A program made the translations under genes and the position numbers. A stretch of DNA of 64,000 nucleotides from Raillietiella orientalis (lineage: Eukaryota). The notes under the pieces were generated by a model, which saw only the letters and a list, made by a program, of their open reading frames with translations, was not told the origin of the DNA and made no database searches. Positions 3,900 to 58,277 of this stretch are shown here, piece by piece. How positions within the stretch are numbered: the stretch's first letter is position 1; the number at the start of each line of letters is the position of its first letter. The stretch spans positions 3,596,001 to 3,660,000 of the forward strand of contig JAYWIR010000019.1 in assembly GCA_036172245.1 (NCBI GenBank), written 5' to 3'.

Positions 3900-7300
<3,401 letters not shown>

Positions 7301-7449
7301 AAAGGGTTAGTGAGCTCCCTCGTCTGTAGGTGAGCGCAAAGCCGAGCTCGCACTAGCGAAACTGAGATATCGGCTTGGTCGAACCGCATCAGAAAGCATC
7401 CCGCTCCGGAAAGATAACTTCACCAGCGCGTTTCCCAGATGTCTTTCTG

Positions 7450-8300
7450 AGAAGTGCATGGCTCTCTCTCTGCTTATGACCAGAGAGCATTTTTTCTTCT
7501 TCCTTTCCTTCTATTTGCATAATTCCCAGGAAAGCTATTAAGGGGCAACTTTTCATTGTTTCGATGGGTGGTTTCTTGCGTGGAATTCCTGAGGCATCGT
7601 AATGGAGGACTCTTGTTCTCGTGGAAGCAATTGATCCTTTCAATAGATGACCTCGAGGAGGATTTTTTCTTTTCCCCCACAGCATCCAAGTCTCCTGGTG
7701 CTAACGATGGTTTGCTCCTCGAAAGAGTGTTGGTGCGAGAAGAGCTTTCTGCGCGGTATAGTAGGGCCGCGAGATAAGAGAACCCAGAGTTTCAAGGGTC
7801 GTACGAGCACGAATGTTCTGCCGACACGCACGGATACGTCAACATGACTCGTTGGTTCGAGTGTTGCGGATCGCAGCTTCACTTCGGTCAAAGTGTAGCA
7901 GAATCCTCAATCGGAGATCAGGAGGTGCCCATGCTGAACAGTGATAACTGCCAAAGAGTTTGTCTTCCCACTCTGCTTTCCGCTGAGGATTCAGAAAAGA
8001 ATGGTAGCTTTCCAAAAGAGTCTTCAGATGGAGGTTCCTGGATGCAAGACGACATCCAGATGAAGTCTCTACAAGTCGGTGGATTCTTCGACTGAAACCC
8101 AAATGTCCTTTACCTGAAGCAGACCTTTGCACTCCTTGCTTCGCAAGGAGTGCAAAGTTTTCAGGTAGACTTCCTGTTTCCTAGGATACAGAAAGAAGGG
8201 TGGTAGTCAGGATAAATTCTACAAAAGCGCATAGGAGAGCGAAAGCAACACGGCGCAGCACCAAACTCATAGATGTATACGACTTGTCGTGCACAAACTG
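7450..8300 (+). mobile_element. Decayed LINE RT N-terminal fragment
   Basis: SIDDLEEDFFFSPTASKSPGANDGLLLE resembles the conserved pre-RT EExxxA...KSPGxDG motif. Confidence 0.5.
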
Positions 8301-8569
8301 GGCTGTACGTTTGTGTTGCCCCACGTTACTGTGCCTGTTCCAAGGGTAGGCAGCCTAGGCAGTTGCCCAATGTCGGGAGCTCCGAAATCGAAAAGACCTG
8401 CGAAACGCGTAGATGCGAGTGTGGAGCCGGAAAAACGTCCCTTTGAAGCTCTTCCTTTTCTACGCACCCACAAAGTCGGTGCCCAGTGGTGGGAGCAGCA
8501 AACCGACCGCTGGAATCCTTGAATAGCACGTGCAAAAAGCAAGTGAACCGTTTCAGTGGGCCCGATGCG

Positions 8570-10400
8570 TGCATCCGGAGCTGAGATTTACTGCTTGCTC
8601 TTCCGGTTTCTGTCAGTTCCGGGGAAAGAGGCTTTCCTCAATTGAAGCCTAGAAAGAGTGATGTGCGCTCGTCAATGACACAAGAAAGATTGATGGGATC
8701 ACCTGCCATATTTCAGCCGAACATAAAAATCGCCAATGAGCTCGATGTACCGAATTAGCTGATGATGGGGATTGAGAAGATGAAAGCTGAGAATACCGGA
8801 TTTTACGAAAGGGATGTGTTTCGTGTATGTCATGCGATTTGGTCATTCACCTATAGAAAGGACATGCCTGCTGTTGCTGCTTCTTCTCGAATTCCTACTT
8901 ACCGGTCCAATGTTGTATATATAGGGCATAAGAGATACTGGAAAATGAGTTTGTCTAGGGAGCCAGAATGCCTAGGACCTATCCCCGACCCATTTATAGA
9001 TATGGATGCCTCGATGCCTCAATGCCGACACTTCGTTGAATTTTTAAAGTGCTTTCCGTGAGCGCAGATGCATATTCCATGAGTGTCGGAGGTGCAGATC
9101 GGTGCAGCTTCCAGTTTTCATGAAATGCATCTCCTTGTCGATGTTTGTGATCATCTTCTACATTGCGCCTGTGCATGTTTAATTACATAGATGAGTTCTT
9201 GTACCTAACTCGAGCGTCGCACTCATATCCTTCCCTACCGATCCGTTTCAGGTCATGTAGCTGAAGCATAACAGGGAATCCATCACTCGTCATGCCTGTG
9301 CGGAAACTCATGGTATGATCTTTGTACGAGGCATTCTTCCTCGTACCATCGCAGAAAAAAGCCCCGGGCGGTGCATACGAGGTACGCGATCGGCTCGTCC
9401 AGAACAACATAACTCTTTTCCAGGAATCTTCCTCGCAAGAAAGAAAACGCCCGCGTGGTGGTTTCCCCTCTTCAGATATGATGTCCGGTAGCGGCTTCAG
9501 AGCACAGGATGGCAGAAACTTCCTCTTCAGCCATCCTTGGCCTTCCCATAAGAAGAGCGACGTGAATCGCGCAAATGAAGGAAGGCTATCGCTTGTCTCG
9601 TGGCAAGGAACTGCTCTCAAAGCCATGAGAACATCGTGATGCTGTGCTGTCCAGGATCAAATGCTGCTTCATCCGAAACTGTGATCTGGAAGAGCGACTG
9701 GTATTCTTCGACGCCATCTGGACCAGGATTTCAGTCTGTTAGTCTTGCGATCTTGCAATAAACGCACGATTTGCACTTTGGGTATGCCTCATCTTGAGCA
9801 ACATCTGCTAGCAACTTGGTGTGACAGTACATGGTAACGCAAAGCGATACCTTGAGAGCTTTCCTGACCCATTCCACTCGGGCATCTGTCACGCGAAGAC
9901 TCTACTGATGGTGATTCCCTCAACGCTGCTTGAACTGACCGGTAGCAGTGCCTCGCGACAAGCCCGGTTCCTCTCTTGGAGCCCTCTTGCATCGCGTTCT
10001 GGACTCAGTCCCTGAGGAGCACACTGCACAGCGCGTCCCTCCCCTGTTGCCAGCTGCCGCTCCGAAGCGCAAAGCCACAGCGCCATTCGAGACGCTCAGT
10101 GCCATTCGTTGCCAGCCCAAGTGGGAACTGGGAGTTTCCTTCTTCCCTCGCGAGCTCAAGAGACCACGGCTCACGGATGACACGAGACACATTTCTTCTC
10201 GTTTGGGAAATCGAGCGCACTCGGACATTCTTGGGGGCCTCCATGCTCCCAGTCGAAGACGGAAACGTCCGCAGATGTCGAAAATCCGAAAGCATCCAAA
10301 CGCGCTCCATCAGCCGTTGGATCATCGGCGGAATGATGCTGCTGTTTTTTGTCTTGGACTCTTTGAGAAACCTCATGATCATTTCGTAACCTGCATCTTT
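8570..10400 (+). mobile_element. Decayed LINE ORF2 (APE plus RT pieces)
   Basis: In order: DVFRVCHAIWSFTY...SSRI (APE DxWR..H...FTY...SRID), KKAPG, KKSDVNRANEGRLSL (KKGD...NWRPISL) and WELGVSF (YLGVxF). Confidence 0.5.
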
Positions 10401-12506
10401 CTTTCTTTCTTTTCTTTTTTAAGGGGAGTTAGGGAGAGGGGAGCGCGATCAATCACCATTCCTGCTGTTTCCATACCTGTCGTGCTCTTTCAGGTCTTCT
10501 GGCGGGAGTTCTCAGAGTTCCACCGAGTGCCGAGACCACTGACGCGGTTTTCCTCCTTCTAGTACGCTTTCACGAGAGATCAATAGGAGGAGGGGAAAGG
10601 GGAAAGCAATTCCATAACTGCTGTTGATTAAAAGAGAAAGAATGAAAAGAAGAAGAGGGGAAACAATAAAAAAAAAAAAAAAAAACAGTGACGAGAAGCG
10701 CTGAAGAACGACTCGGAGTACCGTGGGGGGGGGGGCAGCACCGAATAAACGAAAACTTTCAAGGAGGCACCGTCGTCACTCGGCTGCTGCACAGCATTCG
10801 GAGAGTGGAAAAATCGATTTGTAGAGCTTCGGAAATGGTTAAGTCCCTCTGCATTCGCTCTTCCCGGAGGCCTCACGTACGTGTGCTCCAGAGAGCAGGA
10901 TTTGCAGCTCTGTAGTAAATGGAAGTTGTCAGGTACTCTCGGAAGAACATGTGTACGTATGTGTGGGAATCTGTACTCGGCACTGGGAATTGCAGCAGTA
11001 GCACGGATGCTGAGGATGTCTAATCCGCGATCCCGGAACTGGAACGAAAGGATCTTAATTATCGCAGGATGGCGACTCAGGAGGAAGAAGAAGAAAAAAA
11101 CTTGGGACGGCTATCGTCGAGACGCTACGCCTCGAGCTCTCCTAACTCTGCTAGTCCTTGCTGACCGTTACTGGACACGTTCGTAGTTAGGGAAGGGAAA
11201 CCGGAGACTTGCAATCGTCAGATATGACCTTGAACAAGGAAAACGCTGTCCAGCAGATGAGATGAGCTCCTGAGATGAGCAGGGAGAAACTCACAAGTAG
11301 CGAGCGCCACTGGAACGCTCATCCGCAAGTAGAGGTAGAGCTGCGAAAGACACGGGTCTTAAGCATATATTAAGGATGGGGGAGGAAGGGGAAGGAGGCA
11401 TCCGCATGACTTCTCGAGATTTTGTAGCGCAGCCTGGGGCGCTTTCAGCGTAAGCGACAGAACGGAGGAGGATAGAATCGGACAGAAGTGCATTAATGGT
11501 CCATTAATGGACAGGCGCGAAGGAACCTGTCCTGGGACAAAGAGACCCAGCGAAGTAGCTCCCATTCACTTTTGCTTTTCGTGGATGAGCAAGCATCATT
11601 ATGGTATCATTCTTTTGGAGCATTTGAAGTCAGCATTTATCCGTTTCCTCAGCCACTGTACAGGTCGTTCACATATCGGCCTCTCCTCGAAGAAATAAAA
11701 AAATGCACATGAAATTCGCACTGCTTTTATTCTTTTGATTGTCGACTTAAACGGACCTTTCAGAATCCTAACCACGTAACAGTTCGTTTAAGCTGTCATT
11801 AAGAAGCGCGAATTTTTCCACGAAAAGGTGACCTGCCGGAAGAAGATATGCCGCGCAAACCCTGGAATCCAGGCAACCACGACGATGAAGATATCCGTGT
11901 GTGTGCTGAGAACATTTGGAAACAGAAGCTCGCATCACCTGCTGGAGGTTACATTGGTGCTTCTGTGCAACACTCGCAGTGTAGGAGTGAGCCGTGACAT
12001 CTCCTTTTGCGGTCACCGACGCTTTCATAACTAAAAGCAGAGAAGTTCCTTCCTTGCTGGAGCCTCGGAGCACTCCTGCTTTCTAGGCTCTCCCTCTCTC
12101 TCGAAAACTCTTTGAAAGATCAAATTACGAGTACCACAAAGAAAACAAAAATGCTATCGGGAAAAATCATTCGATTTAACCTATGCTGTTTCTTTATGAT
12201 GAAAACAGGAAAAAGCGTGCGAATGAATACTTTTGAAAACTTCCTGAACGAATTTTCCTGCATTCATTATAAACTAAGCTTCCTCTTCATTTCTTTGACG
12301 TACTTACTCATCCACTTGAAACCCTAAAGAATTTATAATGATTTTTACATATACTCATCAAGTCTCCGGTATCTTTTTTTTTTAGATATGATAAAATCGG
12401 AATCGGAGAAATAAAATAAATTATAAATTATTAGAACGTTGCATTACTTACGGTTTGCAACGTTATGCCTGTGATTTAATCACTGTTTCGCTCGAAGTTT
12501 AAGGGA

Positions 12507-12654
12507 ATGCATGACGACATGTATTTCTGTATTTCCGTAAGTGACGATATGTATTTCCAAGCATGAAGACATGTATTTCCATGTATAACGACATGTATTT
12601 CTGTATTTCCATATGTGACCATATGCATTTCCATGCATGACGGCATGTGTTCTC
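12507..12654. repeat. Minisatellite: ~22-bp unit forming a 74-bp higher-order repeat x2
   Basis: Units related to atgcatgacgacatgtatttcc are arranged 30-22-22 / 30-22-22. Confidence 0.85.
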
Positions 12655-13220: not shown

Positions 13221-13487
13221 CACGTGCGCTCTCATTCCACGTACATTAATGTGCAAACTCATCTTAATATGCATAGTTATTCATGTCTTTAAGCATACGT
13301 ATTATTAACGGCAATATTATTTTATTAAGATTCAGTGGAATGCATCTTATTAGTAAAATTAATAAGTTGTTGATTATATTGTTGATATACATATTAAAGA
13401 TGATAAGAAATAGATACATATGCTTAGGATATGTAATCATATATGTATGTACCTATTTACATGAAGGTTGATATATGGACTAATGCT

Positions 13488-13521
<34 letters not shown>

Positions 13522-14091
13522 AGCATATACACTTTTTTACAATCTTCATTATACACAGATTCCTCACATAAATGTGTGTGTCTATCGAATTCTTAAAAAT
13601 AAAAAATAATTGTCAAGAAAATAGTGGAAAAAAATCAAAACGCAAACAAATTGATTAAAAACAAAAGAAAATTTGATGTTCATGCTATTCATTAAACATA
13701 CACTTATTATACATGTAAACACATCTACGGAAATGCACACGTATGGATATATGTATACGTACACACACATATATATTTCTCCATATTTATATACATATAT
13801 TTCTCTCTATATACATGTATATGCTTACATTTCTATATATATATTTATACACATATTTACATATATACGTGTGTGCATATTTATTTAAATTATCTGTAAA
13901 CACTGATGCATACAATAAGCATATGTATTCCTTTCTTAAAATCTTCCATGTATGAATCAAAAATATAATCACCCTAACGGAACCTATTAATTTTATTATT
14001 AAGTAGTACGTCACTGAATCTTAATAAATATGAGGAACTACGCATGCTAAAATGAATTTGTATATGAATCCACGTAGAATGAGCACACGTG
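13221..14091. mobile_element. AT-rich foldback / MITE-like element with ~200 bp imperfect terminal inverted repeats
   Basis: The left arm (cacgtgcgctctcattccacgt...ttattaagattcagtg...atacatatgctta, 13221-~13430) aligns to the reverse complement of ~13915-14091. The interior is low-complexity and non-coding. No TSD is visible. Confidence 0.7.
13491..13518. repeat. (TA)14 microsatellite
   Basis: Read directly from the sequence. Confidence 0.95.
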
Positions 14092-15419: not shown

Positions 15420-15925
15420 TTTCAAACCCTCTTTTCCAAATAGGCTCCGTGCTTTCCTTGGCTTTGCGCCATCCAGGACGTTTCATGAACCCGCTTCCCT
15501 TCTCGGCAGATTCCTCCGCCAGCAAACGAATTCGCCGAAATTTCTCCGTGCAACCGCCGCGAGTCGGAAGGCATCCGCAGCGACCGCCTTACCGTCCCGA
15601 AACTTTCTGTCCATCCAAAGACTCTCCTCTGGGACGAACACGCAGGAGCTGGTTGGATCCTGCAAGACCCGGACCGCATAGCAAACGAGATGGGTTCGTC
15701 CGGGCTCGACGGCTTCCCCGTGCACGCGAGAGTGAGCAGCACACCACCGTGCGTGCCGTCCGAAACCTGCACTGCCTGTTCTAGTCGAAAGCGCCTTACG
15801 AAGCTCATGAAGTCTTCTCGCAGGGCAGCAGCTCTCGGCTTTCCTCTTTTTGGGTGGGGTTCGCCAACTGCTGAAGAACCGTCCGCCTGGGGCTTTGGAT
15901 CACCATGCCTGGGGACTCCTTTGAC
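15420..15925 (-). mobile_element. Possible LINE APE endonuclease fragment abutting SINE copy 1
   Basis: FMSFVRRFRLEQAVQVSDGTHGGVLLTL resembles APE LxQxV..PT..G..LDL. Confidence 0.3.
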
Positions 15926-15926
15926 G

Positions 15927-16683
15927 CGGTCCACGCCACCCGAGGGTTCGTGTAGTAGCTTTTGAAGACAGAGAGTACCCCGGGAGGGGACCACTCTATG
16001 AACCCAGAAAGGACCCCGGAGGAAGGAGTACGTTCCTCTTAAGTTTGGGAGGGGGAACTCTGAAGGGATCCTCTACCTTATTTCTTCCCCGAAGGGAACC
16101 CGGAAAGGGATCCTCTACCTTATTTCTTCCCCGAAGGGAACCCGGAAAGGGATCCTCTACCTTATTTCTTCCCCGAAGGGAACCCGGAAAGGGATCCTCT
16201 CCTGGAATTTATTCTCCGGAGGGAACCCGCAAGGGAACCGCTCCTTGTTCCTTCTTCCTCTGAAGAGAATCCCGAAGGGACGCTTTCCAATTTCTCTAAA
16301 GGGTCACTCCCCGAAGGGAGCAGCACGCATCTGACACTGGCGAGGCAACCTTCCGAGGGGTTTATCAATCCCAGCTCCATGGCACGCGATGGTGCGGCTT
16401 CATTTTCCCAAACGGAGGAGAACCCCGAAGTGCTCCTCGATGTCCCGGAAGGACCCCAGTTGGTCACCTCCCAATCCCGGCAGGTCAACGGGGGCATCCG
16501 AAAGTTTCCAAATTCCATCGGTGGCGCCAACCGGAGTCATCTTGCGGTGGGGAGACTCGAAGCCTACGACGCACACCCCATTCCTCGACGCGGATCCCTC
16601 CTCGGGCGGGATTCGAACCCGCAGCGCTTGGTGTCACGCACGGTGGAGGCCACCGCAGCCGCACGGCCGCCAACGCGGGCAAC
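15927..16683 (-). mobile_element. tRNA-derived SINE, copy 1
   Basis: The minus-strand head GGCCGTGCGGCTGCGGTGG...GCGGGTTCGAATCCCGCC contains a B box. The element is colinear with the copies at 19.6, 40.0 and 57.3 kb and shares their 3' end GGGTGGCGTGGA. Confidence 0.8.
16065..16200. repeat. 42-bp tandem repeat x3.2 inside SINE copy 1
   Basis: Identical units gggatcctctaccttatttcttccccgaagggaacccggaaa start at 16065, 16107 and 16149, with a partial unit at 16191. Confidence 0.95.
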
Positions 16684-19564: not shown

Positions 19565-20326
19565 TTTTATTTTTATTTATTCGAGAGGTTTTTAGCACTG
19601 TCCACGCCACCCGAAAGTGCAAGTTGTAGGGGATGCCCCGAAAGGGGACCACCCTGTGAATCTAGGAAGGCTCCGGATGCAATAGTCTGTTGCTGTTACG
19701 CTTGGAAAGGGAACCAGGAAGGAAATTCTCTCCCTGGTTGTCTCCGAAGGGAACCCTTCCTTATTTTCTCCGGAGGGACCCCCGGAAGGGACTGCTGTTC
19801 GTTTCTCCGAAGGGAACCCGGAAAGGGATCCGCTCCTGGAATTTATTCTCCAGAGGAAACACTCAAGGGAACCGCTCCTTGTTCCTTTCTCCTCTAGAGA
19901 AAACCCCGAAGGGACGCTTCCGAATTTTCCCTGAAGGGCCACTCCCCGAAAGGAGCAGCGCGCTTCTGACACTCCGGAGAGGCAATCCCCCGAGGGGTGC
20001 ATCAGCCCCAGCTCCGTGGCACGCGATGGTGCGGCTTCATTTTCCCAAACGGAGGGGAACCCCGAAGTGCTCCTCGATGTCCCGGAAGGACCCCGGACTG
20101 TCGACTCCCCATCCCGGCCAACCAACGGGGACATCCGGCTTTCATCAGTGCTACACTGGAAGCCTGTGGGCCGACGAACGCCATCCTGCAGGGAAGCAAA
20201 TTCAAAACCACGACGCACACCCCATTTCTCGACGCCTATCCTTCCTCGGGCAGGATTCGAACCCGCAGCTCTTGGTGCCGCGTGCGCGGAGACCGCCGCA
20301 GCCCCACGGCCGCCAGCGCGGGCAGC
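19565..20326 (-). mobile_element. tRNA-derived SINE, copy 2, with A-rich tail
   Basis: B box GGGTTCGAATCC on the minus strand; colinear with copy 1; ends ...GGTGGCGTGGACAGTGCTAAAAACCTCTCGAATAAATAAAAATAAAA. Confidence 0.8.
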
Positions 20327-20849: not shown

Positions 20850-21650
20850 GAACATCGGTGTTGCTTTGCGCTCATAGGGCCATCTACAGTTTATGCAAGA
20901 TGTACTTGAGTGTCCAAGCAGCCACCTTTCCGCAGTTGCGGACTATGTCGATCTTCTTCATCAGTCACGTCAGGATGATGGATTAGACATCCTGACTCTG
21001 GAAAAAAATAGGGCTGCATTTTCATCCGGGTTTTTCGGAGCTTTTTTTTTAGAAGGAAGCAATGCAAAAGTAGTAGGGTTATGAGCTCCACCAGCTCCGG
21101 CACAGGTAAGGCGTCGATTGGTTGTCTTGGTGCAGGGGAACACCCGGATCTCCTGCCTCCCACGAACTGCACCTCGCTTGAGGAGTCAGTTTCAGCATGG
21201 TGTAAGACCCACGGCTCGAGGGAGGTGGAGTGCGCCTGCCTCTGGAAAGGGAGGCACGCTCGACAGTCCCTGCGGGAAATTGTATGCAACCCACGCAGCC
21301 TACTGAAGGCCTCGTTCATCCCCCTTGACCTAGTGCTGCCCTCCATTAAAAACGCTAGGGGCAGCGACCTCCTGACAAGATGGCAAGTGTCTTGCCGTAT
21401 CCAAGGCCGAGAAAGACATTTGAAGCGCGTGGGCAACTCTGCAGCTACCGAGCGCTGCGACCCACAGTGCCTCGCCGAAAACACGTCTACGCTGGGGCGA
21501 GCTGCTCGCGATGCCTTAGGAGGAAGTGAAGTGTCCTTCAGCGTGTTGGGACACTGGCACCCTACCCCTGAAGTGGCAAGATGTGGCATTGCTGGTGTTG
21601 CATTGGGGAATCCCATGCCAAGAGCGCCTCCATCATTGGACATTTGGGAG
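20850..21650 (+). mobile_element. Tx1/L1-like ORF2 3' fragment A
   Basis: LLHQSRQDDGLDILTLEK (thumb P..GGL motif) and TLPLKWQDVALLVLHWGIPCQERLHHWT; truncated before the zinc finger. Confidence 0.7.
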
Positions 21651-21789
21651 TTTTCACCCGGTCACGCCGGAGCGTTTATCAAAAAAACACAGTACATCTG
21701 CGGTACTAGGCCCCGCTACGGCCAATAGTTCCTGGGACCTGCCAGAAAGCTGGTTCGCAGACCGGCTTGACTCTCCTCGGCAGCGAGGG

Positions 21790-23005
21790 AGGGGGGGTAA
21801 AACAAAAAGGAAATAAATGGAATAACAAAAAGAAACTATTTGTGGGGCCGGGTAGGGATCACAACCCGCTAGAGGAAGAGACCTTCCTTTCCAGGATGCC
21901 CTCGAGGTCCCTCGTCATAGCTCCCAGATGGGACCAGCCGATCGCGATTCGCAGGTAGCGACCAGCGTGTACGATGGGATCCCTGTCGCTGCTTCCTCTG
22001 TTGGCTGCGCTCCACGCGGCCACAATCCCTCGGAGGCAGCAAAGTGCTGCCAGGGCTGAGGCTGGTGTCAGGGCGTGTCGCTCGAAGAGGAGTCTCATAA
22101 CCTCTCTGGGGGTGCTGCCTACCGGCATTGAAAGGTTCGTAGCAAAACGTTCCCACAAGGGCTGGAGGGCAGCGCAGTCCACTAACAGATGGGGGAGGGA
22201 TTCCTTCTCCCCGCACACTGCACAGTTCTGTCCCACGTTCCCCAACGTCCAGTGGTGGCGGCGCGCGTTGCAGGGAAGGCCCCAGTGCAACAACAACAGC
22301 GCCGTTTCCTGCCACTTGAGGGGGAGGGTGGATGCGTCTCTAAATAACGGGGGCCACTCTAGATCATCCGCCGGGATGCCAAGCAGCTCGCCCCATCTCC
22401 GTATTCCATGCGGGTGAACGCTTGGAGTTGCGGCGTCTGCCAGTTCCCTCATTGTCCACCCGATTAGATCCTTCTCCTTGCCCGCTATCCGGCAGGAGAC
22501 TTGCCATCTCGGCTTCCGGCTATTTTGAAGCGCCCTTCGTAGGAAGGGCAGCTCTGTGGCCAGTGGGGTCGTCTCTGCTCAAGTGCTTCTGGCGGGACAC
22601 ACGATCATGTTCCGCAGCGTGCAGCGGGTGTAGATGCCGGTGCGCAAGCGGTTGCAGGATTCTCCACTGATGTGTTTCAACTTTGCCCACGTTCCAACTG
22701 TTTCTTCCAGCCATGCGCTGGAGTTGGCGGGGCTGCAGGCCATCCACCCGTTCTTCTTTGCCAGGGTGGCCATGCGTCCCAGGAGAAGTCCGCATCTTCT
22801 TATTTTCCGGCCGGGGCATAGAAGAAAAGACGCGAGTCCTTCAGTCCCGGACACACGTCTGGCGAGAAGGCGGGTTGGAACGCACCAAGGGGTGTTCCAC
22901 ATTTTCGCTGCGATGGCTATAGTGAGCCACCGCAGCTGTGTTTCCATTCGCTCCATCGTCAGGACGCTAAGACCTCGGTCCCGACGTGGAGCGCACAAAT
23001 CCTTT
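21790..23005 (-). mobile_element. Tx1/L1-like ORF2 3' fragment B, with 3' UTR
   Basis: LKDLCAPRRDRGLSV...LPLKWQETALLLLHWGLPCNARRHHW...CAVCGEKESLPHLLVDC (CxxC-H-C zf-RVT), then a stop and a pyrimidine-rich UTR. Confidence 0.8.
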
Positions 23006-23584
23006 AAAGGGACATCTGGGAGTGTGGATGCCAATTGCGAAAGTTGCCAAGAGGAGACATTCCCGCACTTATTAATAGACCGTTTCGGTCTCCGAACCCT
23101 TTGGGATCGATTCTCGCTGATCCTTAAAATTCCGATTGGCGACCATAAGAACATTTTCCGATGCCTCTTCAGGCGTGACTCCCTGCCGTCAGCCGAATCT
23201 CTAGCAGTGCTCTGCCGTGTGCGCGGAATCGTGGCAAGCTGGGACGCCAGAAGAGACCAAAACAGCAGGGATGTCATCCATTGGACAGGAATCTTCTTGA
23301 AGACCGCTTCCCGATGGCCCCAACTGCAACCAGAACGCAGAACTGGTCAGCATCCTGAGCAGGATACAGAGGACGTCTCCGGACAAACTGTGATCCCTTC
23401 CCCATCCCCCTTCCTCCGAAAAACTTTCCCTTCCCTCTTGTCTTTTTGTCTACTTTTGTTTGGTTTTCCTTTCGCCGTTGGAGTGGAACTCACCGGTCTG
23501 CGGACCGATTTGTGGCAAGTCCTCGGAGCGTGGTAGAATCAAGTGTTCTACCAGGATTTTGTAAACATCGCGACTTTCATTATA
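23006..23584 (+). mobile_element. Tx1/L1-like ORF2 3' fragment C, with 3' UTR
   Basis: NCESCQEETFPHLLID...LWDRF...VRGIVASW; the motif tgtgatccct is shared with B and D; a 3' stem-loop tggtagaa/ttctacca is present. Confidence 0.8.
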
Positions 23585-23590
23585 CTCTTT

Positions 23591-24395
23591 TATAATGAAT
23601 GTTCTGGCAAATCCGGGTGATAAACCACGTCCAGATAACTAAGGACCTACCGGTCGGGAATTCGGCGTACAGGCTGGGAATGACAGTCTGGGCAGCAGCA
23701 AAGAGATGTAACAAAGGAAAAAATGAGAATATAAATATCTTTGGGGGACACGGGAAGGGATCACAGCCTGCTGAAGGCCGTCCTCTGCATCCTCTTGAGG
23801 ATGCCGGCAAGTTCCTGCTGCGTGTTCCTCAGATGGGGCCATCCCGTTGTCCACCGCAAAAAACGTTGGGAGAAGTGAATGGCTTCCCTGGCGCGACCTC
23901 CTCCTCTGGCGCTGTTCCAGGCCGCCACAATCTCCCGAATGCAGCAAAGAGCTGGGGATGCGGCTGGCAGTCATGCGTCGCGCACGAAGAGGGATTTCCG
24001 TGCATCCCTGGGGCTGCCACGTTGATGTGAGAAGGGTCGTTGCTTCCAAACCTTCCCTCAACGCAGTAGGGTAACGCAGCCTACGAGCAGGTGCGGATGG
24101 ATCCACGTTTCCCACATCTGCTGCAGTTTGGGTCCGCCTCCTCTCTCGAGGTCCAGCGATGTCGGCGGGCGTTGTATGGGAGACCCCATCGGAGCAGCAG
24201 AAGCGCCTACTTCTTCCACTTGAAAAGAAAAGTGCGGTCGTTCAGGAGCTCTGGGGACCACTCGGTATCTTCACGAGGAATTTCTCAGCAGCTCACCCCA
24301 GTGCAAAAGTTATTTCGGCGGGATACTCGGGGTTGCAGCGTCTGCAAGCTGGCCCGAGGTCCACTTGGTCCAACCATCTAAATCCTTTCTCCTGG
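23591..24395 (-). mobile_element. Tx1/L1-like ORF2 3' fragment D, with 3' UTR
   Basis: QLADAATPS, ALLLLRWGLPYNARRHRW, NCSRCG..PHLLVGC and CCIREIVAAW, read across frameshifts. Confidence 0.8.
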
Positions 24396-24399
24396 AATG

Positions 24400-25510
24400 A
24401 TCTCTCAGGAGGTCAGGCCGCGTGTAAACTTCCGTGTTTCGACCCTTTGCTCCAAACCGTGGAATTCCTCGCGCGAAAGGACATGCGCCGGAGGCGGACT
24501 GCTCTCGTTGCTACTGCGCAGCCGGCACAGAAGGGAGGGATTTGGCATCCCTCTGACGCGATTTGCCTCCCTTTTGGAAGCCCATCCGTGGACCTCCTGT
24601 CGCTCTATGAACTCTGCTGCTTGGCAACAGAAGGGGGATCGTGTCCAGAGCTGCCTTCCAAGGAATACGTCCAGTGTAACTTCGTTCCCTGTGTCCCTTC
24701 CTCAGCCATCCTTTGGCAAAGGTGCTGCGCGACCCGAGGAAGTTGATCCGACACACCTCTTGCCGCCGCGCTGTCTGCCCTCAGGGCAAGCGACGACAGT
24801 TGCCTACCGGCGGAGTGGGAGTTCCCTTGCCCCATCTCAGGAGAGGCCAAAGTCCTGAGAGGCTGGACAATGAGCGAGCTGGTGGACGCCGCACTCCTCG
24901 TTCGCAAGCGAAGGGATGATGTCAGTAGTCCGAGCTGTTGAGTGTGCCCTCTCCCCCTCCTCAGACGAACTCGTGATCCCTCCCTTGTGTTTGAACACTA
25001 CCGTGCTCCCTTTAAGTTGGAAAGGGGCTGTGCTGCTGTTTCTGCACTGGAAGGACATCCCAAACTGTTGTTTCAGGTGCAGGTCGGTGGAAGCGATTTC
25101 ACAACTGCCGCCTTTGGACTGCGGTGTCCTCTATGAACTTTGGAGGCCGACTTTAGCGCTCCAGAACCAGGAGGGCAACGATGGATGGTTGCGTCCCCGC
25201 CGCCGTCACGGTCCGCCACGTCTTGGAGAGCGAAGGGCAGCGAAGGGAGGCCTCCAGCATGGCATCTGCCCACATGAGGATGGTTGGACCCACACCCGGA
25301 AGAGGAAGCCGAGGCGGAGATCGGCATATTCAGCGCCGGTTCTGGAATGGAGGAAAGGTCAAAGTCAAAGATCCTTGTCCACACCCTTCCCCTTTTATCA
25401 GTTTGGTCACTGTCTCCTCCCTCCCTTCCGTTCCGGAATTCCCAGTGTTTGAGAAGAAACCGGAAGAGCCAAAGACCCCTGCCCCTGCCCTTCGTCCTCT
25501 TCTATTTTTA
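24400..25510 (+). mobile_element. Tx1/L1-like ORF2 3' fragment E
   Basis: GLLSLLL...WTSCRSMNSAAW, GWTMSELVDAA and LPLSWKGAVLLFLHW...CFRC..VEAISQL..DC are homologous to B. Confidence 0.75.
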
Positions 25511-25629
25511 TAATCCCCATCCACCCGTTCCGGACTCCTAGAGGGACCACCCTGTGTGTCGATGGCACCCTCCCCTTGAAATTGTTTTTGTTATCTTGTT
25601 GGGGAACTTTGTGGTTCCTAATGCGTTTT

Positions 25630-26250
25630 GCTCACCTTTCGAATGAACGCCCCGGCGTGACCAGGTGGTGAGTCTCTTTCATCAGCAGTCCAAGCACGAC
25701 GTCCTTCTCCCCTGAATGAACTTTCACCTTCTCACCACGACGAGGGTAATGAGGAAGGCTCTTACTCGCGGGGTTGTACGCCAGGACAACTCCATTTCTA
25801 CTCGGAATCTCCGTTGGTAACACATTCTGCAGGCCTGCCACCCGTACGACCACTGTCATGTCGTTGGTCAGCGTCCGGCTGGTGAGCTGTCGTGCTGGGT
25901 TTCATAATCCGCACACGCTTTGCAGGTTTCGACCTGACTCCTCCCTGTGAAGTATTGGAGTCGGACACCGCACCAGAGACCTCTGTGGTAGAAAAACAGG
26001 AGGTCATCTAGTGTGCCTGGTGGTAACTCCGTCTTCGAGATTACTGCACCGAATGCTCTGCAATGGATTTGAGTTGTGAGGAAACAGTGGGCTGCATCTT
26101 CCTCGTCTTGTAACGGGTGATACCGACTCTCCAGTCCTGTGTCTCCTCCTTTTTGACCAGAATTCCCTGGTCAAGCGGGTCACTCTGCCCCTTATATTCG
26201 TCATGCACTGGAGCAGTCCGTATCTCATGACGATCTGCATGGATGCAATC
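25630..26250 (-). mobile_element. Decayed LINE RT N-terminal fragment
   Basis: VRIMKPSTTAHQPD and PGHAGAFIRK; the latter also occurs at ~21655-21685 (+). Confidence 0.35.
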
Positions 26251-26263
26251 ATAATTTGCAGTC

Positions 26264-26437
26264 CAGAATCGTGCACGTTATGCGTAATATAATCGAATAT
26301 TCTCCCTTTTCATCATTCTTCATCATCTTATGCCAGCAGAAAGACTGTCTCAGAATCGTGCACGTTATGCGTAATATAATCGAATATTCTCCCTTTTCAT
26401 CATACTTCATCATTTGATGCCAGCAGAAACACTGTCT
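26264..26437. repeat. 87-bp tandem duplication x2
   Basis: Near-identical units cagaatcgtgcacgttatgcg...actgtct start at 26264 and 26351. Confidence 0.95.
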
Positions 26438-26708
26438 AATCGTTATGGAAACAAATTGCTGTCTACAGGAATTACCTTGCATTCTTGCATTTTCTAACCT
26501 AACCCTCATTAAATCTCAGGGCTTAACATCTTTGCAGGCTCAGATTTCTAAACTGACCGATAAAACTTACAGCAGCCCAAGTGGCTGTTCAAACAGCCAC
26601 TTGGGCTGCTGGATCTCACTTTGCTCGCAGCAACGTTCTTTAATCCACAGGGTAGGATGTGTCGACGTGTGCTGTTGTTGGTCCGAAATGCGTATGGCTT
26701 GCGATGGG

Positions 26709-26908
26709 AGGGAGGCACTCTCGAGAGTCCCTGCGGGAGATCGTATGCAACCCACGCAGCCTACTGTAGGCCTCGTCCATCCCCCTTGACCTAGTGCTGC
26801 CCTCCATTAAAAACGCTAGGGGCAGCGACCTCCCGACAAGATGGCAAGTGTCTTGCCGTATCCAAGGCAGAGAAAGAAATTTGAAGCGCGTGGACAACTC
26901 TGCAGCTA
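26709..26908 (+). repeat. 200-bp direct copy of 21248-21447 (part of fragment A)
   Basis: Ungapped alignment by eye gives about 10 mismatches in 200 nt. Confidence 0.9.
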
Positions 26909-39329: not shown

Positions 39330-41900
39330 TCTCAGCCGGAGATATTCTCACTAGTAATGTGCACGAAATCGTCAAAACCCCGGAATGATCGAAAAATGGA
39401 GGAACAAGACTCTGAGAAGCTTGTCTCTTCGGTCTTGCTACATCCTGAGCTACTCGAAATGCAGTATGAATCTTCCTGGGTGTCAGTTCTAGAGTTCAAG
39501 ACTAATTTGATTGGCGCAAATTCGATGAGGCAGCTCCGATAGGGATGAAACGCTCGGAGTTTATTTTTTAGCACTGGCGACCTCCAGCAAAAAAAAAAAA
39601 AAACGCTAGAAGCTAGCCCTTGCATGTACAGAACAAAAGGAATGAACCCATCAGGGAAGTAGAGTAAACATGGCACGAGTGAAGTGGGATTTCTTTGTGC
39701 ACTCTAGCAAAAGGATTGCAATTCCAGGACTTTATTTGACATCAAGGCATAGAAAAATCCAAACTGTTTCACCGACAAGATAGTACGACGGCATGCAGAT
39801 TTCTGTGCGCCGATCTGGCTATCCCTGACTTCGTGCTTAGTCCAGTGGTTATGTAAGTATCATAGCAAGTGGATATCTCGAGGTGTCTTGTGGTCCCCGA
39901 TTTGATTTTGCATTCAAAATCACAAATTCCTACTTGTTTCAATCTTTAATCTCTAAAGTAGAAAGGATGCAATGTATGTGCTCTGCGTCGTCTAGGTAGC
40001 CCTGGTCGGAAACCGTGTGGTTACGGTGGTCTCCGCACGTAGCACCATGCGTCGTGGGCTCGAATACTCCGAAGGAATCGATGCAGTGAGTCGTGGGTTC
40101 CCAGTTCACCCCACAGGATGACTGGTTGGCCTACATTCATCTGAGTGCGGCACTGGTAGCGGTTAAAACCGGATGCCCCCGATGAGGGCCGAGACAAATG
40201 GGAGTCGACCTCCGGGTCCTTCCAGGAATCACGGATAGGGGAGTCTTCCCTCCGGTTGTGAAGGAGCGGGTCCCCTATTCCGGGGGGACCCTCTGCGTCG
40301 TACTGATGGAGTAGGTGTGTCGCTACCACCTCTCCAGAGAGTGCAGAGAAGTAAGCCGATCCCTTCGGGGAAGCTGCGTCCTTCTGAGTTTCGGAAGCGT
40401 CCTTTCTAGGTTCCCTTCAGAGGAGCAAACAGGAGCGAATCCCTCCGGAGAAGAAATTCCAGGTTCGGATCCTTTCCGGGTTCCCTTCAGAGAAGAAAGA
40501 ATGTAGCGGACCCCACTGGGGGTCCTCCGAAGAGAATAAAGAAGGAGATTTCTTTCGGGATTTCCCTTCGGAGACAACCAGGGTGTAGGTGATCTCCATT
40601 TTGGGGGATCCCTCCCCAGGCGTGAGAGGAGCGGACTCCGAGTCCTTTCTGGATTCATAGGACGGACCCCTCTCGGGGTACCGCCTATCAATTACCCACC
40701 TTCGGGTGGCGTGGAACCATGTCGAAGAACTGCGAAGACAGAAAAGAAGGATTTCCATCATCCTATCCATCCATGGATATGCCATACTTTGCAGTGGTCA
40801 ATCTCATTATTTAAACTGGAAGCTAATGATTGGCTTCTTCAGAACTTGGTTGTTCTTCCTACTTGTTTTACTGAGTACAAGCTTTGCCTCCTGTGACTCC
40901 TAATGTTATTAGGAAGTTCCTTGTTATTAATTCGAGTACAAGCATCAGCTTTGGCAAGCACTTCGATCTGCTGGAAAAAAAGAAAAAGAAAAACGAGCTG
41001 AAAGAGAAAAGCAATAAAGGTCTAAACGCCGTTCGAAATCTCGAGTGTGCCTTTGCTTGAGGCTGCATTCTGGATACATTTTAGCACAGATCCTATCTTG
41101 CCCTTTCGCTGTAGTTGCTGCCGTATCCTCCTCAAAAGACTAGACGCTTATCTACAATTATTGGAGATTCTAATTTGCTATGCTACCTGTTAATGAATGT
41201 CCTTTGCTTTGATTCCACGATCCGATCCTGATTGCACCGTTTGTACTAGTCTGTCTTCCATTCCTCTTGATTGAAGGTGATGGAGGTGCAATTAAAGCGC
41301 GGACCCTCTCTCCAAACCTGAAAAGAAAACTTCCTGAGGACATGCTCGCAATGGTCCTGCTCCTGAGATCTGACTCCTTTAAAGCTTTTTATGCAGCTTT
41401 ATGAAGCGTCGTCGCAAGAGACAAGAGGGAACCTTCCTGCTTTCACGTACTACATCTGTACGTTTTTTCGAGACAGAAACACAGTATATTACTGTTTCCT
41501 TATGTCGGGAAGACCAGAAACGGGTTAATGAATTTCAGTAGCAGATCCTCGGATAATTTTCCAGCCCAAAAGTTCTTAGGTGAGAAGCAACAGTTTCTCT
41601 ACAGGGCAATGTGCTAATTTCATTCTAGTCGCATTAGTCGGTGGCAAAGACGTTTCCACCATCATTTGGATTTGTGTCGCCAGATGGTTGGTCCCTCATT
41701 ACCTTTCAGGTCCTCATGCCTAATATAATAAGGAAAATGGGGTAATTTAGGGTTTATGAAATATGACTCAGGAAATCTCCAAGGACAGATATTCAAGTGA
41801 AATCGAAACTGCTAGTTTGTCGAAATCAAGATTGACTAATTCGTTGAATCGAATAGAGAGAAATCTTGCTCGAGAGTTCCTTCTGATTTGTAGTTTTCAG
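39330..41900 (+). mobile_element. Decayed L1/Tx1-like RT-thumb-ZnF, interrupted by SINE copy 3
   Basis: EVGFLCAL and SRGVLWSP precede the SINE; YLFY*VQALPP...IRKF and KQQFLYRAM follow it. Confidence 0.45.
39996..40718 (+). mobile_element. tRNA-derived SINE, copy 3
   Basis: Head CCGTGTGGTTACGGTGGTCTCCGC...GGGCTCGAATAC, the same hairpin-rich body, and 3' CCACCTTCGGGTGGCGTGGA. It interrupts an L1/Tx1-like fragment. Confidence 0.75.
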
Positions 41901-53749: not shown

Positions 53750-55170
53750 AAACGCTGTCGTTCTTCTCTGCAATTTCGCGCCCGAGATCTTCTTGGGAAG
53801 GCGCTTTCCATGTGGTCCATCGGCCCATGGCGGTGGCAACTTGTTCCGGCGCACCTCTTCAGACGTCCCGCTTTGCTGTGCGCACTTGGCTTTCCGAGAA
53901 ACTACAGGTCGGCGCATTCTCCGCCGACCTTCTTTATTCCTAAGGGGAAGCTCTTCTCTTCCAGCCACGGTGGTGCGTGCTGCTCGGATCCAGGGAACGC
54001 GTTTGTTTTGCTCAGTACGTGCGCGCCTTTGCGACTTCCAAGAACTGGAGGAGGATCTCCTTCTCGTCCATCCGCAGCCTCAATCCGATCGAGTGGACCA
54101 CAACCGGATGGTCCGCCGTTACGGAGTAGAGCCTTCTGCCCGCGATGGTCTCAGAAGCCCTTGAGCGAGACCTGCTTGCTCGCAAATTACCTCTACGAAT
54201 TCCCCCTTACGAACCGCAAAGAGGACTTCCAGCTCTTCATTGTCAACGTCGAAGTCATGAAGTCCCTCCGCGAGGGAGAGCACAACTGAAGCCAGTCCTA
54301 GACGGCCTACTTTAAAATGGTCGGCCTGTATCCCCGGGCCAAATAGGCCCTTGATTCTGCCTGGGCTGCAGTTGGCGACGTAGAAACCACCTGGCTCCAG
54401 GACTTTCCGTCCCAGGACTTGACTGATTCCTTGGAGGCTGCTGCCATTGGGAGGAGTGGTGCCATTCTTTTCCACCATCTGCTGCCTCGTTAGCGCGCTT
54501 TGTGGCATTTCTGCCATCACGTCGCATCCCCCTCTCACGAAAACTCAAATTCCAGCCATTTATGTGGGATTGCAGGACTCCGACAAAGCATGTCCGTCCC
54601 ATTCGTCGGGGATCGGACATGCGTGTCGATGGAACGATGTGCATGGTCGTCCCAACGGAGGTGTCGTGGCAGGAGTAGTCGTGGAGCGCTCCCCCTCAGG
54701 TGTGGCAACACGAGTGGCGCTCCTCTTGCACTGGGGTCTTTGTTGCGACGAGCGCCTTCTGCACCACGTGACTAAGGGGAGAGTCCCTCTGTTGTGTGGC
54801 AGGCGCGGGGAGATCGAATCCCTCCCCCACCCGCTGGTGGACTGCAGTGTCCTCCGTCGGTTGTGGCAGATGGCGGCCGGCTTCAGCTCTTTTGCATCCC
54901 GAGGGTTCGCCGGCCGAATCTCCGCTCCATTTCTTCTCGCGGGAGGGTCTCTCTCGCTTGCCGAGGAGATTGAGGAGCTGCGTTGTAGCCGCGGCAGCAG
55001 CGGAGGAGCCACTTGCATCGCCGCCTCCCTGATGAAGTTTGGCACCATCTGGAGATAGAAGACAGCGAGGAGATCACCAACAGAGCACCGAAGCTCTAGG
55101 GGAGAGGCAGAGATCCCGGTGTCCCCGCTCCCACCCTCCCGTTGTTGATCTGTTCATCCCCCTACTTCCT
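53750..55170 (+). mobile_element. Tx1/L1-like ORF2 3' fragment F, same family as the 21-25 kb array
   Basis: VALLLHWGLCCDERLLHH...LCGRRGEIESLPHPLVDCSVLRRLW. The 5' boundary is uncertain. Confidence 0.7.
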
Positions 55171-57253: not shown

Positions 57254-58277
57254 TTTAACACTATTCCACGCCGCCCGGTGATACGTGTCAACTCTTGAAG
57301 TTAGTGTGCAGCCCCGGGAGGGGACCACTCAATGAATTTAAGAAGGCTTCGGAAGAAGTAGTCGGTTCCTTTAACTCTGGGGAGGGAAACTGCGAAGGGA
57401 ACCTCTTCCTCATTCTCTCCAGAGGGACCCCGGAGAGAGCTGCTCCGTTGTTTCTTCTCTGGAGGGAGTGCTATATCCTTCGCAAATTGAGCTCGCTTTT
57501 CTTCATTTCTTTCTTTAATATCCGTAGGTCTTTTTTACTTGTAAATCCAATATTTTTTAAGCGCGCAGTGAATCGTTTGTCGATTGATATTGCCCCAGAG
57601 TTTAGCCATCTCTGAGTTTAGCCAGAGTTTAGCAGGAAAGGATCCGCTCCAGGAATTTCTCCTCAAGGGAACCGCTCCTTGTTCCCTCCTCCTCTGAAGG
57701 CATCCCCGAAGAAAGCAATGCGCTTCTTATACTCTGAAGAGTCAGTCTCCTGAGGAGTGCATCAACCAACTCCATGTTACGGTTCCATTTTTACAACCGG
57801 AGGGGACCTCGAAGATCTCGTTGATTCCTGGAAGGAATCCTGAAGGTCAACTTCCAATCCTGGCCAGTCTGCAGAGGAATCCGGTTTCTGGATTCAACCA
57901 GTGCCTCACCCGTAACCTGTAGACCAGCCAGCATCATCCTGTGGGGGGGACTCGAAACTCACAACGCGCCCTTTATTTTCATCCAGTGACTCCAAGGCAT
58001 TTATTGTAAAAAATTTTCACAAAGAAACAGTCATGTAAAAAATGCCTTTCTTAGTAGTGGCTTCACGTCTCCACTACGAATGGAAAAGCCTCGGAGGCGC
58101 TGCTTCTCGTGAGCAGCTCCCCCGATGGAGTCCGCACAAAAGAAGTGAGGGAAGGGGTAAACAAAAACAACAAAAAAAAGACACACACAAAAGTTCTGTT
58201 TATAAACACGCCGATCCTTTACTGCGACTCGAACCCTGAATGCATCGTACCATTCGCGGAGACCGTAACCAAACGGC
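57254..58277 (-). mobile_element. tRNA-derived SINE, copy 4 (older, split by two insertions)
   Basis: The 3' end (tttaacactattccacgcc) and body (to ~57970) match copies 1 and 2. The head GCCGTTTGGTTACGGTCTCCGC...GGGTTCGAGTC lies at ~58215-58277. Unrelated sequence sits at ~57470-57630 and ~57975-58210. Confidence 0.65.

What the first reader, a model, noticed from the sequence alone, without database searches (positions are those of the whole stretch)
15927..16683. tRNA-headed SINE whose body is a modular array of UUCG-type hairpins
Seen: four copies (15927-16683 -, 19565-20326 -, 39996-40718 +, 57254-58277 -) share a head with a B box (GGTTCGAATCC), a second B-box-like motif about 50 nt later, and a 3' half of short GC stems capped by TTCG or variants. 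Examples are CTCCC-TTCG-GGGAG, TTCCC-TTCG-GGGAA, CCC-TTCA-GGG and the terminal CCACC-TTCG-GGTGG. The hairpins come as twins separated by purine-rich linkers, and module number differs between copies. Established: cUUCGg is an exceptionally stable RNA tetraloop, and SINEs are Pol III RNAs mobilised by LINEs. Inference: this may be an undescribed SINE or Pol III ncRNA with a repeated-hairpin scaffold, for example a multivalent protein-binding platform or LINE-recruiting structure.
Basis: partly seen in the sequence, partly recalled or inferred. Interest (0 to 1): 0.75.

Follow-up and report, generated by a model that had tools for sequence, protein, structure and literature searches.

The report
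Long hairpin-rich SINE, often tailless
The flagged stretches are old, mostly cut-short copies of an unusually long non-coding jumping element of the SINE type in an animal genome; its hairpins are real, but the UUCG loops are not what is conserved, and the best-preserved part of old copies is the polymerase III promoter box.

Summary
The four copies are real members of a family of about 6,600 copies in this 210-Mb animal genome. The full element is 0.9-1.1 kb: tRNA-like head, body of ~41-nt hairpin-prone modules, A-rich tract, terminal hairpin, T-run, poly(A). Young copies have 8-16-bp target-site duplications, so it is a SINE-type retroposon; an abundant L1/Tx1-type LINE is the likely driver but shares no sequence with it. 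Most copies are 5'-intact and 3'-truncated (19 of 30 young), like mammalian tailless retropseudogenes. UUCG loops are not the conserved feature: 2 stems in the old consensus, 1 in the young. Old copies' stems decay neutrally. The surviving lineage gained local structure, but strand-symmetrically, so RNA selection is unproven. Two side results: the B box of old copies is ~3-fold less diverged than the rest (12/179 vs 552/3078 in a B-box-blind set), and LINEs hit two fixed sites in the SINE (5 and 4 events). No Rfam match; Dfam and Repbase were unavailable. This scan has noted the family many times elsewhere in the same genome. Verdict: new variant of a known kind.

The parts
15840..16680 (-). 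Copy 1: old-burst member, 5'-intact, ends at the internal A-rich tract (profile positions 4-850 of 953)
   Evidence: 86% identical to the old consensus (locus L003)
16609..16619 (-). Copy 1 B box, canonical
16554..16564 (-). Copy 1 second B-box-like motif; reads as a degenerate duplicate of the head's 3' half, not a canonical box (inference)
   Evidence: locus L106 carries a fresh tandem repeat of the same head segment
16063..16254 (-). Private tandem expansion of one 42-bp module (4.6 units, 88% matches); supplies 3 of copy 1's 4 UUCG hairpins
19586..20323 (-).
20253..20263 (-). Copy 2 B box, canonical
39999..40763 (+). Copy 3: side subfamily shared with locus L187 (same internal deletion in the tail), ending before the terminal hairpin
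40057..40067 (+). Copy 3 B-box variant
57254..58277 (-). Copy 4: degraded old copy in three pieces (profile positions 18-90, 93-528, 529-769)
57997..58207 (-). LINE 3' end inserted in sense just downstream of copy 4's B box; the same site is hit in L038, L052, L113 and L190
   Evidence: (72-78% to L113, L052, L190)
57468..57630 (-). Second foreign insertion in copy 4, unidentified
   Evidence: no match in the fetched loci
21886..23013 (-). Nearby fragment of the candidate driver, an L1/Tx1-type LINE ORF2 C-terminal part (context, not part of the SINE)
   Evidence: 52% aa identity to L184 ORF2; zf-RVT, E 1.2e-4, below the curated cut-off

Best explanation
A long non-autonomous non-LTR retroposon (SINE type). 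Step 1 (inferred): RNA polymerase III transcribes a source copy from the tRNA-like head through 0.9-1.1 kb without an internal T4 to a terminal hairpin and T-run. Step 2 (inferred): the ORF2 protein of an abundant L1/Tx1-type LINE copies the RNA into a nicked target. Step 3 (shown by junctions): priming occurs either on the poly(A) tail or, more often, inside the RNA at unpaired purine-rich stretches that match a few target bases, giving 5'-intact, 3'-truncated copies that still have target-site duplications. Step 4 (shown): one large old burst, to which window copies 1, 2 and 4 belong, decayed in place, while one ladder-like source lineage stayed active until recently. The body grew by duplication of a ~41-nt module and by hairpin-tip expansions (period shown, route inferred). 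Stems, not loop sequences, accumulated in the active lineage. My reading, about even odds against a purely mutational origin, is that they are favoured because they protect the long RNA and keep priming near its 3' end. Once inserted, a copy's hairpins are not constrained.
For: Copy number: 17 copies in 54 fixed-interval 10-kb segments, about 6,600 genome-wide (95% interval 3,900-10,600), 1.7% of bases. Sharp 5' start and poly(A). An 11-mer duplication with at most 1 mismatch flanks 15 of 32 young copies, against 1.6% in the null. 19 of 30 young loci are 3'-truncated and 1 of 30 is 5'-truncated by more than 15 nt; 10-11 of the 19 show a clear duplication, mostly overlapping element sequence. 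In the unbiased sample 11 of 16 start near the 5' end and 1 of 16 reaches the 3' end. Breakpoints lie in less-paired sequence (0.36 vs 0.48, p=0.034). No internal T4 in three consensuses; 2-5% of shuffles lack one. Heads align collinearly with genomic tRNAs (best z 5.3-7.0). Star plus ladder tree of 92 copies: old 85%, youngest 98.5% to own consensus. LINE with endonuclease, RT and zinc finger, open frames of 1,215-1,217 aa, 3,472 first-look candidates. Local folding excess over shuffles: -0.086 to -0.095 kcal/mol/nt in the young consensuses, -0.038 in the old consensus, mean -0.023 (strongest -0.057) in 31 old copies.
Against: Pol III transcription is not shown. The A box is degenerate and not conserved (16.9% vs 15.5%), and the active lineage carries a B box that departs from the published consensus at its last position. 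Head-to-tRNA identity (62-63% over 72-79 nt) is within what shuffled heads reach (mean 58%, maximum 64%), and the source tRNA is unresolved (Gly, Thr, Arg and Asp score alike). The driver is not proven: no shared tail, and LINE copies end in few A's while full SINE copies have long poly(A). Selection on RNA structure is unproven: folding excess is strand-symmetric (z -6.8 sense, -7.0 antisense) and G-U versus A-C changes are 4:3. The young set was ranked by score, so its truncation points are biased toward the 3' end, and two of its 30 loci are one duplicated insertion.
Confidence: 0.75

Rival explanations
1. One reading: a functional Pol III RNA whose UUCG-capped hairpin array is a multivalent protein platform or LINE-recruiting scaffold.
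For: UUCG hairpins exceed shuffles in copies 1 and 3 and the old consensus. The surviving lineage folds more stably than any of 31 old copies. At pair probability 0.8 or more, 13 of 20 changed pairs stay pairable in the young consensus against 37% in old copies (p=0.009). Head-hairpin covariation score 0.232 vs 0.199 (5 of 500 shuffles).
Against: Only 2 UUCG stems in the old and 1 in the youngest consensus; well-supported young loops are of many sequences. At threshold 0.5 the test is not significant (15 of 31, p=0.15) and double-sided changes are 3 of 31 and 2 of 20 (p=0.21, 0.30). With strand-neutral pairs the excess vanishes. Head-hairpin pairs with changes on both sides: 4 vs 5.0 shuffled (the tool warns that relatedness inflates the other scores). 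Old copies: substitution rate 0.15-0.16 paired vs 0.153 unpaired. No LINE homology.
Confidence: 0.07
2. The hairpins are a mutational by-product: module duplication, C-run and G-run slippage and fold-back templated copying during repeated reverse transcription make perfect inverted repeats with no selection on structure.
For: Gain of structure is strand-symmetric Watson-Crick pairing. New stems appear as near-perfect inverted duplicates at hairpin tips along the ladder. Autocorrelation peaks at 40-43 nt. Copy 1 shows a fresh tandem expansion.
Against: The head hairpin was remodelled by single-base changes that keep pairing, including one G-C to U-A switch. Arm-swap penalties were higher on the ladder than among old copies for the head and for two well-anchored modules (1.2 vs 0.4, 6.0 vs 1.1, 2.5 vs 1.2 kcal/mol), though not for others.
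Confidence: 0.4
3. The RNA is irrelevant after insertion but the DNA is not: the B boxes of thousands of old copies are kept by selection, or shielded from mutation, as TFIIIC-bound sites. Compatible with the best explanation.
For: B box 22 of 394 aligned bases changed (5.6%) vs 15.5% overall in 50 old copies; it and its 1-nt shift are the two best of 889 overlapping 11-nt windows. In 19 copies recovered without reference to the B box: 12/179 vs 552/3078 (Fisher p=1.8e-5). Target-site duplications of old copies look as decayed as the elements (0 of 25 with at most 1 mismatch; simulations give 30%, 16% and 9% at 5%, 10% and 15% divergence), so most divergence came after insertion.
Against: Sites differ in mutability (next-best windows are 8.7-9%), so the binomial p overstates; by rank among about 80 independent windows p is near 0.01. 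Positions free in the published consensus are as conserved as fixed ones, which fits shielding or low mutability as well as selection. 12 blind-set copies with unrecognisable heads were excluded, 3 of the 19 have deletions over the box, and about 4 belong to side lineages. Uncertain 3' ends lower duplication detection, so relay through many promoter-selected sources is not excluded.
Confidence: 0.25
4. The repeat is the 5' or 3' UTR, or a deletion derivative, of an autonomous LINE, or forms SINE-LINE chimeras.
For: Several old copies abut LINE ORF2 fragments in the same sense.
Against: Among 113 SINE hits, 21 lie within 300 bp of LINE ORF2: 9 same sense, 12 opposite. Complete young copies are bounded by their own duplications. 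No homology to two near-full-length LINEs (best profile E 1.9). The junctions read as nested insertions.
Confidence: 0.04

Closest known systems
tRNA-related SINEs with head, body of unknown origin and tail (SINEBase, PMC3531059; first 10,000 characters and passages read)
   Same: Interspersed, non-coding, far over 100 copies, tRNA-like head with B box, A-rich tail, target-site duplications; this layout is the commonest SINE pattern (41%).
   Different: 905-1,091 nt, against 75-662 nt for all 175 families listed in 2012; young copies exceed the 1-kb limit; tRNA identity is marginal.
Quasi-oligomeric SINEs such as CHRS (same paper)
   Same: Body holds a degenerate motif repeated in variable number.
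   Different: Unit is ~41 nt and hairpin-prone rather than ~20 nt; no sequence comparison was possible.
Tailless retropseudogenes and tailless SINEs made by therian L1 (Noll et al. 2015, PMC5322556; passages and section 21 read)
   Same: 5'-intact, 3'-truncated, flanked by duplications, ending in single-stranded A-rich regions with target complementarity.
   Different: There internal priming is described as occasional and tied to therian L1; here it is the majority outcome for one SINE family in what is probably an invertebrate.
Target-preferring Tx1-clade LINEs and their SINE partners (Kojima 2015, PMC4494074; passages read)
   Same: LINEs repeatedly inserted at fixed positions, in fixed orientation, of another repeat.
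   Different: The target here is a tRNA-headed SINE; clade assignment rests on domain layout and distant homologs, not on a tree.
TFIIIC-bound Alu elements (PMC7014570, search listing and abstract start only) and selection against change in Alu copies (Britten 1994, title only; not held)
   Same: Precedent for constraint or function at SINE DNA after insertion.
   Different: Here only a substitution deficit is measured; no binding data.

Membership tests
SINE (SINEBase definition) | Interspersed repeat with at least 100 copies | tested here: met
   About 6,600 copies from 17 in 540 kb; 4,879 first-look candidates
SINE (SINEBase definition) | Shorter than 1 kb | tested here: inconclusive
   Old consensus 909 nt (met); youngest consensus 1,091 nt (not met)
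SINE (SINEBase definition) | At least 60% identity to a tRNA over at least 60 nt | tested here: inconclusive
   62-63% over 72-79 nt to genomic tRNAs, but shuffled heads reach 58% on average and 64% at most; local alignment z 5.3-7.0; ARAGORN and Rfam find no tRNA in the copies
SINE (SINEBase definition) | Non-autonomous | tested here: met
   No Pfam domain in the two long frames overlapping copies 1 and 2; complete young copies bounded by duplications
SINE (SINEBase definition) | Inserted by LINE-type target-primed reverse transcription | tested here: met
   Poly(A) and 8-16-bp duplications; 15 of 32 young copies vs 1.6% null
SINE (SINEBase definition) | [quoted passage not shown] | not testable with these tools
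   Indirect only: B box, no internal T4, terminal T-run of 2-12 in most complete copies
SINE with a LINE-derived tail (stringent partner) | 3' end shared with a LINE 3' UTR | tested here: not met
   No homology to two near-full-length LINEs; LINE 3' end differs; other LINE families not surveyed
Tailless retroposons (Noll et al.) | 5'-complete, 3'-truncated, flanked by duplications | tested here: met
   10-11 of 19 truncated young copies
Tailless retroposons (Noll et al.) | Breakpoints in single-stranded regions | tested here: met
   Mean pairing 0.36 vs 0.48, p=0.034, on a predicted structure; modest
Conserved structured ncRNA | Covariation or stem constraint beyond controls | tested here: inconclusive
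   None in old copies; mixed in the active lineage
Known RNA families (Rfam 15) | Match to a covariance model | tested here: not met
   0 at gathering threshold in the window; nothing on the element at E up to 1 in 16 loci; 3 weak chance-level rows (E 1.1-4.3) in 7 loci with long copies
Described SINE families (Dfam, Repbase, SINEBase sequences) | Sequence match to a catalogued consensus | not testable with these tools
   No such library; SINEBase supplement not held
Tx1 clade (for the LINE) | RT phylogeny with Tx1 members | not tested
   Domain layout and target preference fit; nearest named homologs 23-31% identical; no tree built

The most novel reading that the evidence does not exclude
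An invertebrate SINE longer than catalogued families whose old copies keep their B boxes under host selection as a genome-wide set of thousands of TFIIIC sites, while the source lineage is selected for an ever more base-paired RNA that confines reverse-transcriptase priming to its 3' end, and two LINE subfamilies have specialised to insert at fixed sites just downstream of that promoter.
Probability: 0.15. Interest if true: 0.72.

Novelty: new variant of a known kind. Interest (0 to 1): 0.4.

Why it matters
As a family it is one more SINE, though longer than catalogued ones. Three features make it a useful test case. First, tailless insertion is the rule, so hundreds of young junctions could map how a non-mammalian L1/Tx1 reverse transcriptase chooses priming sites on a structured RNA. 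Second, an old star burst and a single surviving lineage at equal distance from the same ancestor give a built-in neutral control for asking whether RNA structure is selected in SINE source genes. Third, the B-box deficit in old copies is a measurable, testable hint that SINE promoters are retained after the elements stop moving.

Tried and rejected
SINE-LINE chimera idea: suggested, rejected by the orientation count (9 same, 12 opposite). LINE-shared 3' tail: suggested by L007 and L008, rejected because the LINE piece in L007 is a nested insertion and full LINEs show no homology. Helitron-like or ribozyme-like readings, considered from short motifs before the true end was known, were dropped after poly(A), duplications and empty Rfam searches. 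Old copies being recent insertions from many diverged sources: not supported by duplication decay, not excluded. Arm-swap covariation test: several anchors hit the wrong segment, so it is reported as mixed. The structure given was out of register and is superseded. Expression: no RNA holder listed; the one listed run, of unknown kind, gave one 955-nt contig on the element and nothing on the flanks, which says nothing about expression or polymorphism. A sequence look-up of earlier notes returned nothing. An early guess at a plant host in my notebook was dropped once animal features appeared (Creb-binding domain); the host is described only as an animal, probably an arthropod, on recalled resemblance of its U6 and tRNAs. 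The random sample stayed at 540 kb.

Full report
Observation. The four stretches are homologous and the quoted hairpins are present. Counting c(UUCG)g hairpins with stems of at least 4 bp gave 4, 0, 2 and 1 in copies 1-4, against 0.02-0.06 in 300 shuffles each; three of copy 1's four come from one private 42-bp tandem expansion. The exact B box is in copies 1 and 2 only. ARAGORN and Rfam find nothing in the window. Rfam at permissive thresholds finds nothing on the element in 16 loci and only three chance-level rows (E 1.1-4.3) in 7 loci with long copies.

Family size and true ends. The window lies in a 210.5-Mb eukaryotic assembly. Copy 2 drew 4,879 candidates; the 39 non-self places among 40 scored were 70-79% identical. 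A search with the tail (40 of 334 candidates scored, 30 fetched) gave the real end: an A-rich tract, a terminal hairpin, a T-run and poly(A), and exposed a young subfamily (39 non-self places at 89-98%). A profile run over 54 fixed-interval 10-kb segments gave 19 rows; I dropped one weak antisense self-match and merged two pieces of one split copy, leaving 17 copies, about 6,600 genome-wide (3,900-10,600) and 1.7% of bases. A tree of 92 distinct long copies shows a star of 50 old copies (85% to their consensus) and one ladder ending in the youngest group (98.5%). Window copies 1 and 2 are in the star, copy 4 is a fragmented old copy not placed on the tree, and copy 3 is on a side branch with a shared tail deletion. 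Consensus lengths are 909 and 1,091 nt, above the 75-662 nt of 175 families in SINEBase (PMC3531059, passage).

How it inserts. Complete young copies have poly(A) and duplications of 8-16 bp, often starting with A's. An 11-mer with at most one mismatch flanks 15 of 32 young copies against 1.6% of null pairings. The striking pattern is the direction of truncation: 19 of 30 young loci are 5'-intact or nearly so and 3'-truncated, 11 reach the end, and 1 lacks more than 15 nt at the 5' end (two loci are one duplicated insertion; ranking by score favours long copies). Ten or eleven of the 19 have a clear duplication, mostly overlapping the last element bases. In the unbiased sample 11 of 16 start near the 5' end and 1 of 16 reaches the 3' end. 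Breakpoints have lower predicted pairing than the surrounding region (0.36 vs 0.48, p=0.034). This matches tailless retropseudogenes, attributed to internal priming at single-stranded, A-rich regions (PMC5322556, passages and section 21), where it is described as occasional and therian.

Head and transcription. Against 54 distinct tRNA predictions from this genome the heads align collinearly, with best z-scores of 5.3-7.0, but the best tRNA changes between consensuses, and overall identity (62-63%) is within the range of shuffled heads. No consensus has an internal T4, which only 2-5% of shuffles achieve (the three are not independent). Pol III transcription is therefore a reasonable inference, not a result. 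The second B-like motif reads as a duplicate of the head's 3' half; its divergence in old copies (12%) is near background.

Driver. The genome holds an abundant LINE (3,472 candidates, 150 scored at 79-100% aa identity) with endonuclease, RT and zinc-finger domains in open frames of 1,215-1,217 aa and an ORF1 with a weak zinc-knuckle match; named homologs are 23-31% identical. It shares no sequence with the SINE at either end, so the element is not its UTR and has no borrowed tail. SINE-LINE adjacency has no orientation bias (9 vs 12 among 113 hits). Instead LINEs target the SINE: 5 of 7 copies whose match begins at profile positions 60-100 are preceded by a sense LINE 3' end just downstream of the B box, window copy 4 among them, and 4 of 6 copies whose match ends at positions 150-200 are followed by an antisense LINE 3' end at one site. 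Fixed-site targeting of other repeats is known for Tx1-clade elements (PMC4494074, passages).

Hairpins. The body has a 40-43-nt period. In the old consensus three loops of the UUCG, UCCG or CUCG type are predicted with probability near 1 in both folds; in the youngest consensus one UUCG loop remains and the other confident loops are of many sequences. Old copies mutate equally in paired and unpaired positions (0.15-0.16 vs 0.153), so inserted copies are not constrained as RNAs. The active lineage, equally distant from the old consensus (84%), gained local stability: excess over shuffles -0.086 to -0.095 kcal/mol/nt, against -0.038 for the old consensus and a mean of -0.023 (strongest -0.057) for the 31 of 50 old copies long enough to test. 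Whether that is selection is open. Pair retention was 13 of 20 (p=0.009) at one threshold and 15 of 31 (p=0.15) at another, and double-sided changes were not in excess. For the head hairpin in 26 chosen copies, pairing and covariation scores beat 495 of 500 shuffles, but pairs with changes on both sides did not (4 vs 5.0). Arm swaps were mixed. The UUCG platform idea is thus unsupported; stems may matter to the source RNA.

B box in old copies. It is the least diverged 11-mer in 50 old copies: 22 of 394 bases (5.6%) against 15.5% overall, while the A-box region is at 16.9%. In 19 copies recovered without using the B box it was 12/179 against 552/3078 (p=1.8e-5), with 12 copies excluded for unrecognisable heads, 3 with deletions over the box and about 4 from side lineages. 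Old duplications are decayed (0 of 25 with at most one mismatch), suggesting the divergence is mostly post-insertion. Site-rate variation weakens the p-values (rank-based about 0.01), and positions free in the published consensus (PMC524483, passage) are equally conserved, so selection, shielding by a bound factor and low intrinsic mutability all remain. Precedents exist for Alu (PMC7014570, listing only; Britten 1994, title only). The active lineage itself carries a variant box, which I cannot explain.

Novelty. Searches for a SINE with repeated UUCG or hairpin modules and for tailless or Tx1-linked SINEs listed no description of this family; only listings were read for most hits, subscription journals are largely absent, repeat databases were not available and the SINEBase supplement, which holds the consensus sequences, could not be seen. 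The scan has noted this family often in the same genome (268 notes fit the look-up, 8 shown). Host: an animal (Creb-binding domain), probably an arthropod on recalled resemblance only. Verdict: a real, apparently uncatalogued, unusually long SINE, a new variant of a known kind, interest 0.4, raised above a routine SINE by the tailless majority, the B-box deficit and the LINE target sites.

Noticed in passing
window 57997-58207 (-); L038, L052, L113, L190: Five independent LINE 3' ends inserted in sense at one SINE site just downstream of the B box.
   Followed up: partly
L022, L113, L149, L163 (SINE profile positions ~162-182): Four LINE 3' ends inserted in antisense at a second fixed SINE site; in L022 and L149 both SINE halves are present and overlap by about 16-19 profile positions, as a duplication would give.
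   Followed up: partly
L110, immediately 5' of the young SINE: A stretch that reads as a U6 snRNA 3' end (recognised from recall and by likeness to the Rfam alignment) abuts the SINE 5' end: a possible U6-SINE chimera or an insertion next to a U6 copy.
   Followed up: no
L002:3354-3458 (-): U6 copy (Rfam, 88 bits) whose 3' end diverges from the model, 1.1 kb from an old SINE copy; possibly a tailless U6 retrocopy.
   Followed up: no
L106, about 3917 onward in SINE orientation: A side-lineage copy with a fresh tandem repeat of the ~40-nt head segment containing the B box.
   Followed up: no
3' ends of complete copies (L031-L060, L095, L111, L113): The T-run before poly(A) varies from 2 to 12 and a few copies lack an A tail, as expected if oligo(U)-ended RNAs were tailed after transcription.
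   Followed up: no
L092 and L094: The same young insertion with shared flanks occurs twice, inverted, ~75 kb apart on one contig: a segmental duplication or an assembly duplicate.
   Followed up: no
window 21000-26900 and 54700-55330: Cluster of nested LINE fragments in both orientations; LINE copies also nest in each other in L184, L198, L201, L202. LINE 3' ends stop after a short terminal hairpin with only a few A's.
   Followed up: partly
window 57468-57630 (-): Unidentified 160-bp insertion in copy 4 with no match among fetched loci.
   Followed up: partly
window 12507-12651, 13321-14028, 26264-26443, 42543-45155: Other repeats: a 74-bp tandem, an AT-rich inverted repeat of ~210-bp arms, an 87-bp tandem, and a ~200-bp direct repeat at 83%.
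   Followed up: no
L122 (G000:C7:1404492-1404624): A tRNA gene called Lys(TTT) whose body closely resembles the Thr(TGT) gene of L065: a possible anticodon shift.
   Followed up: no
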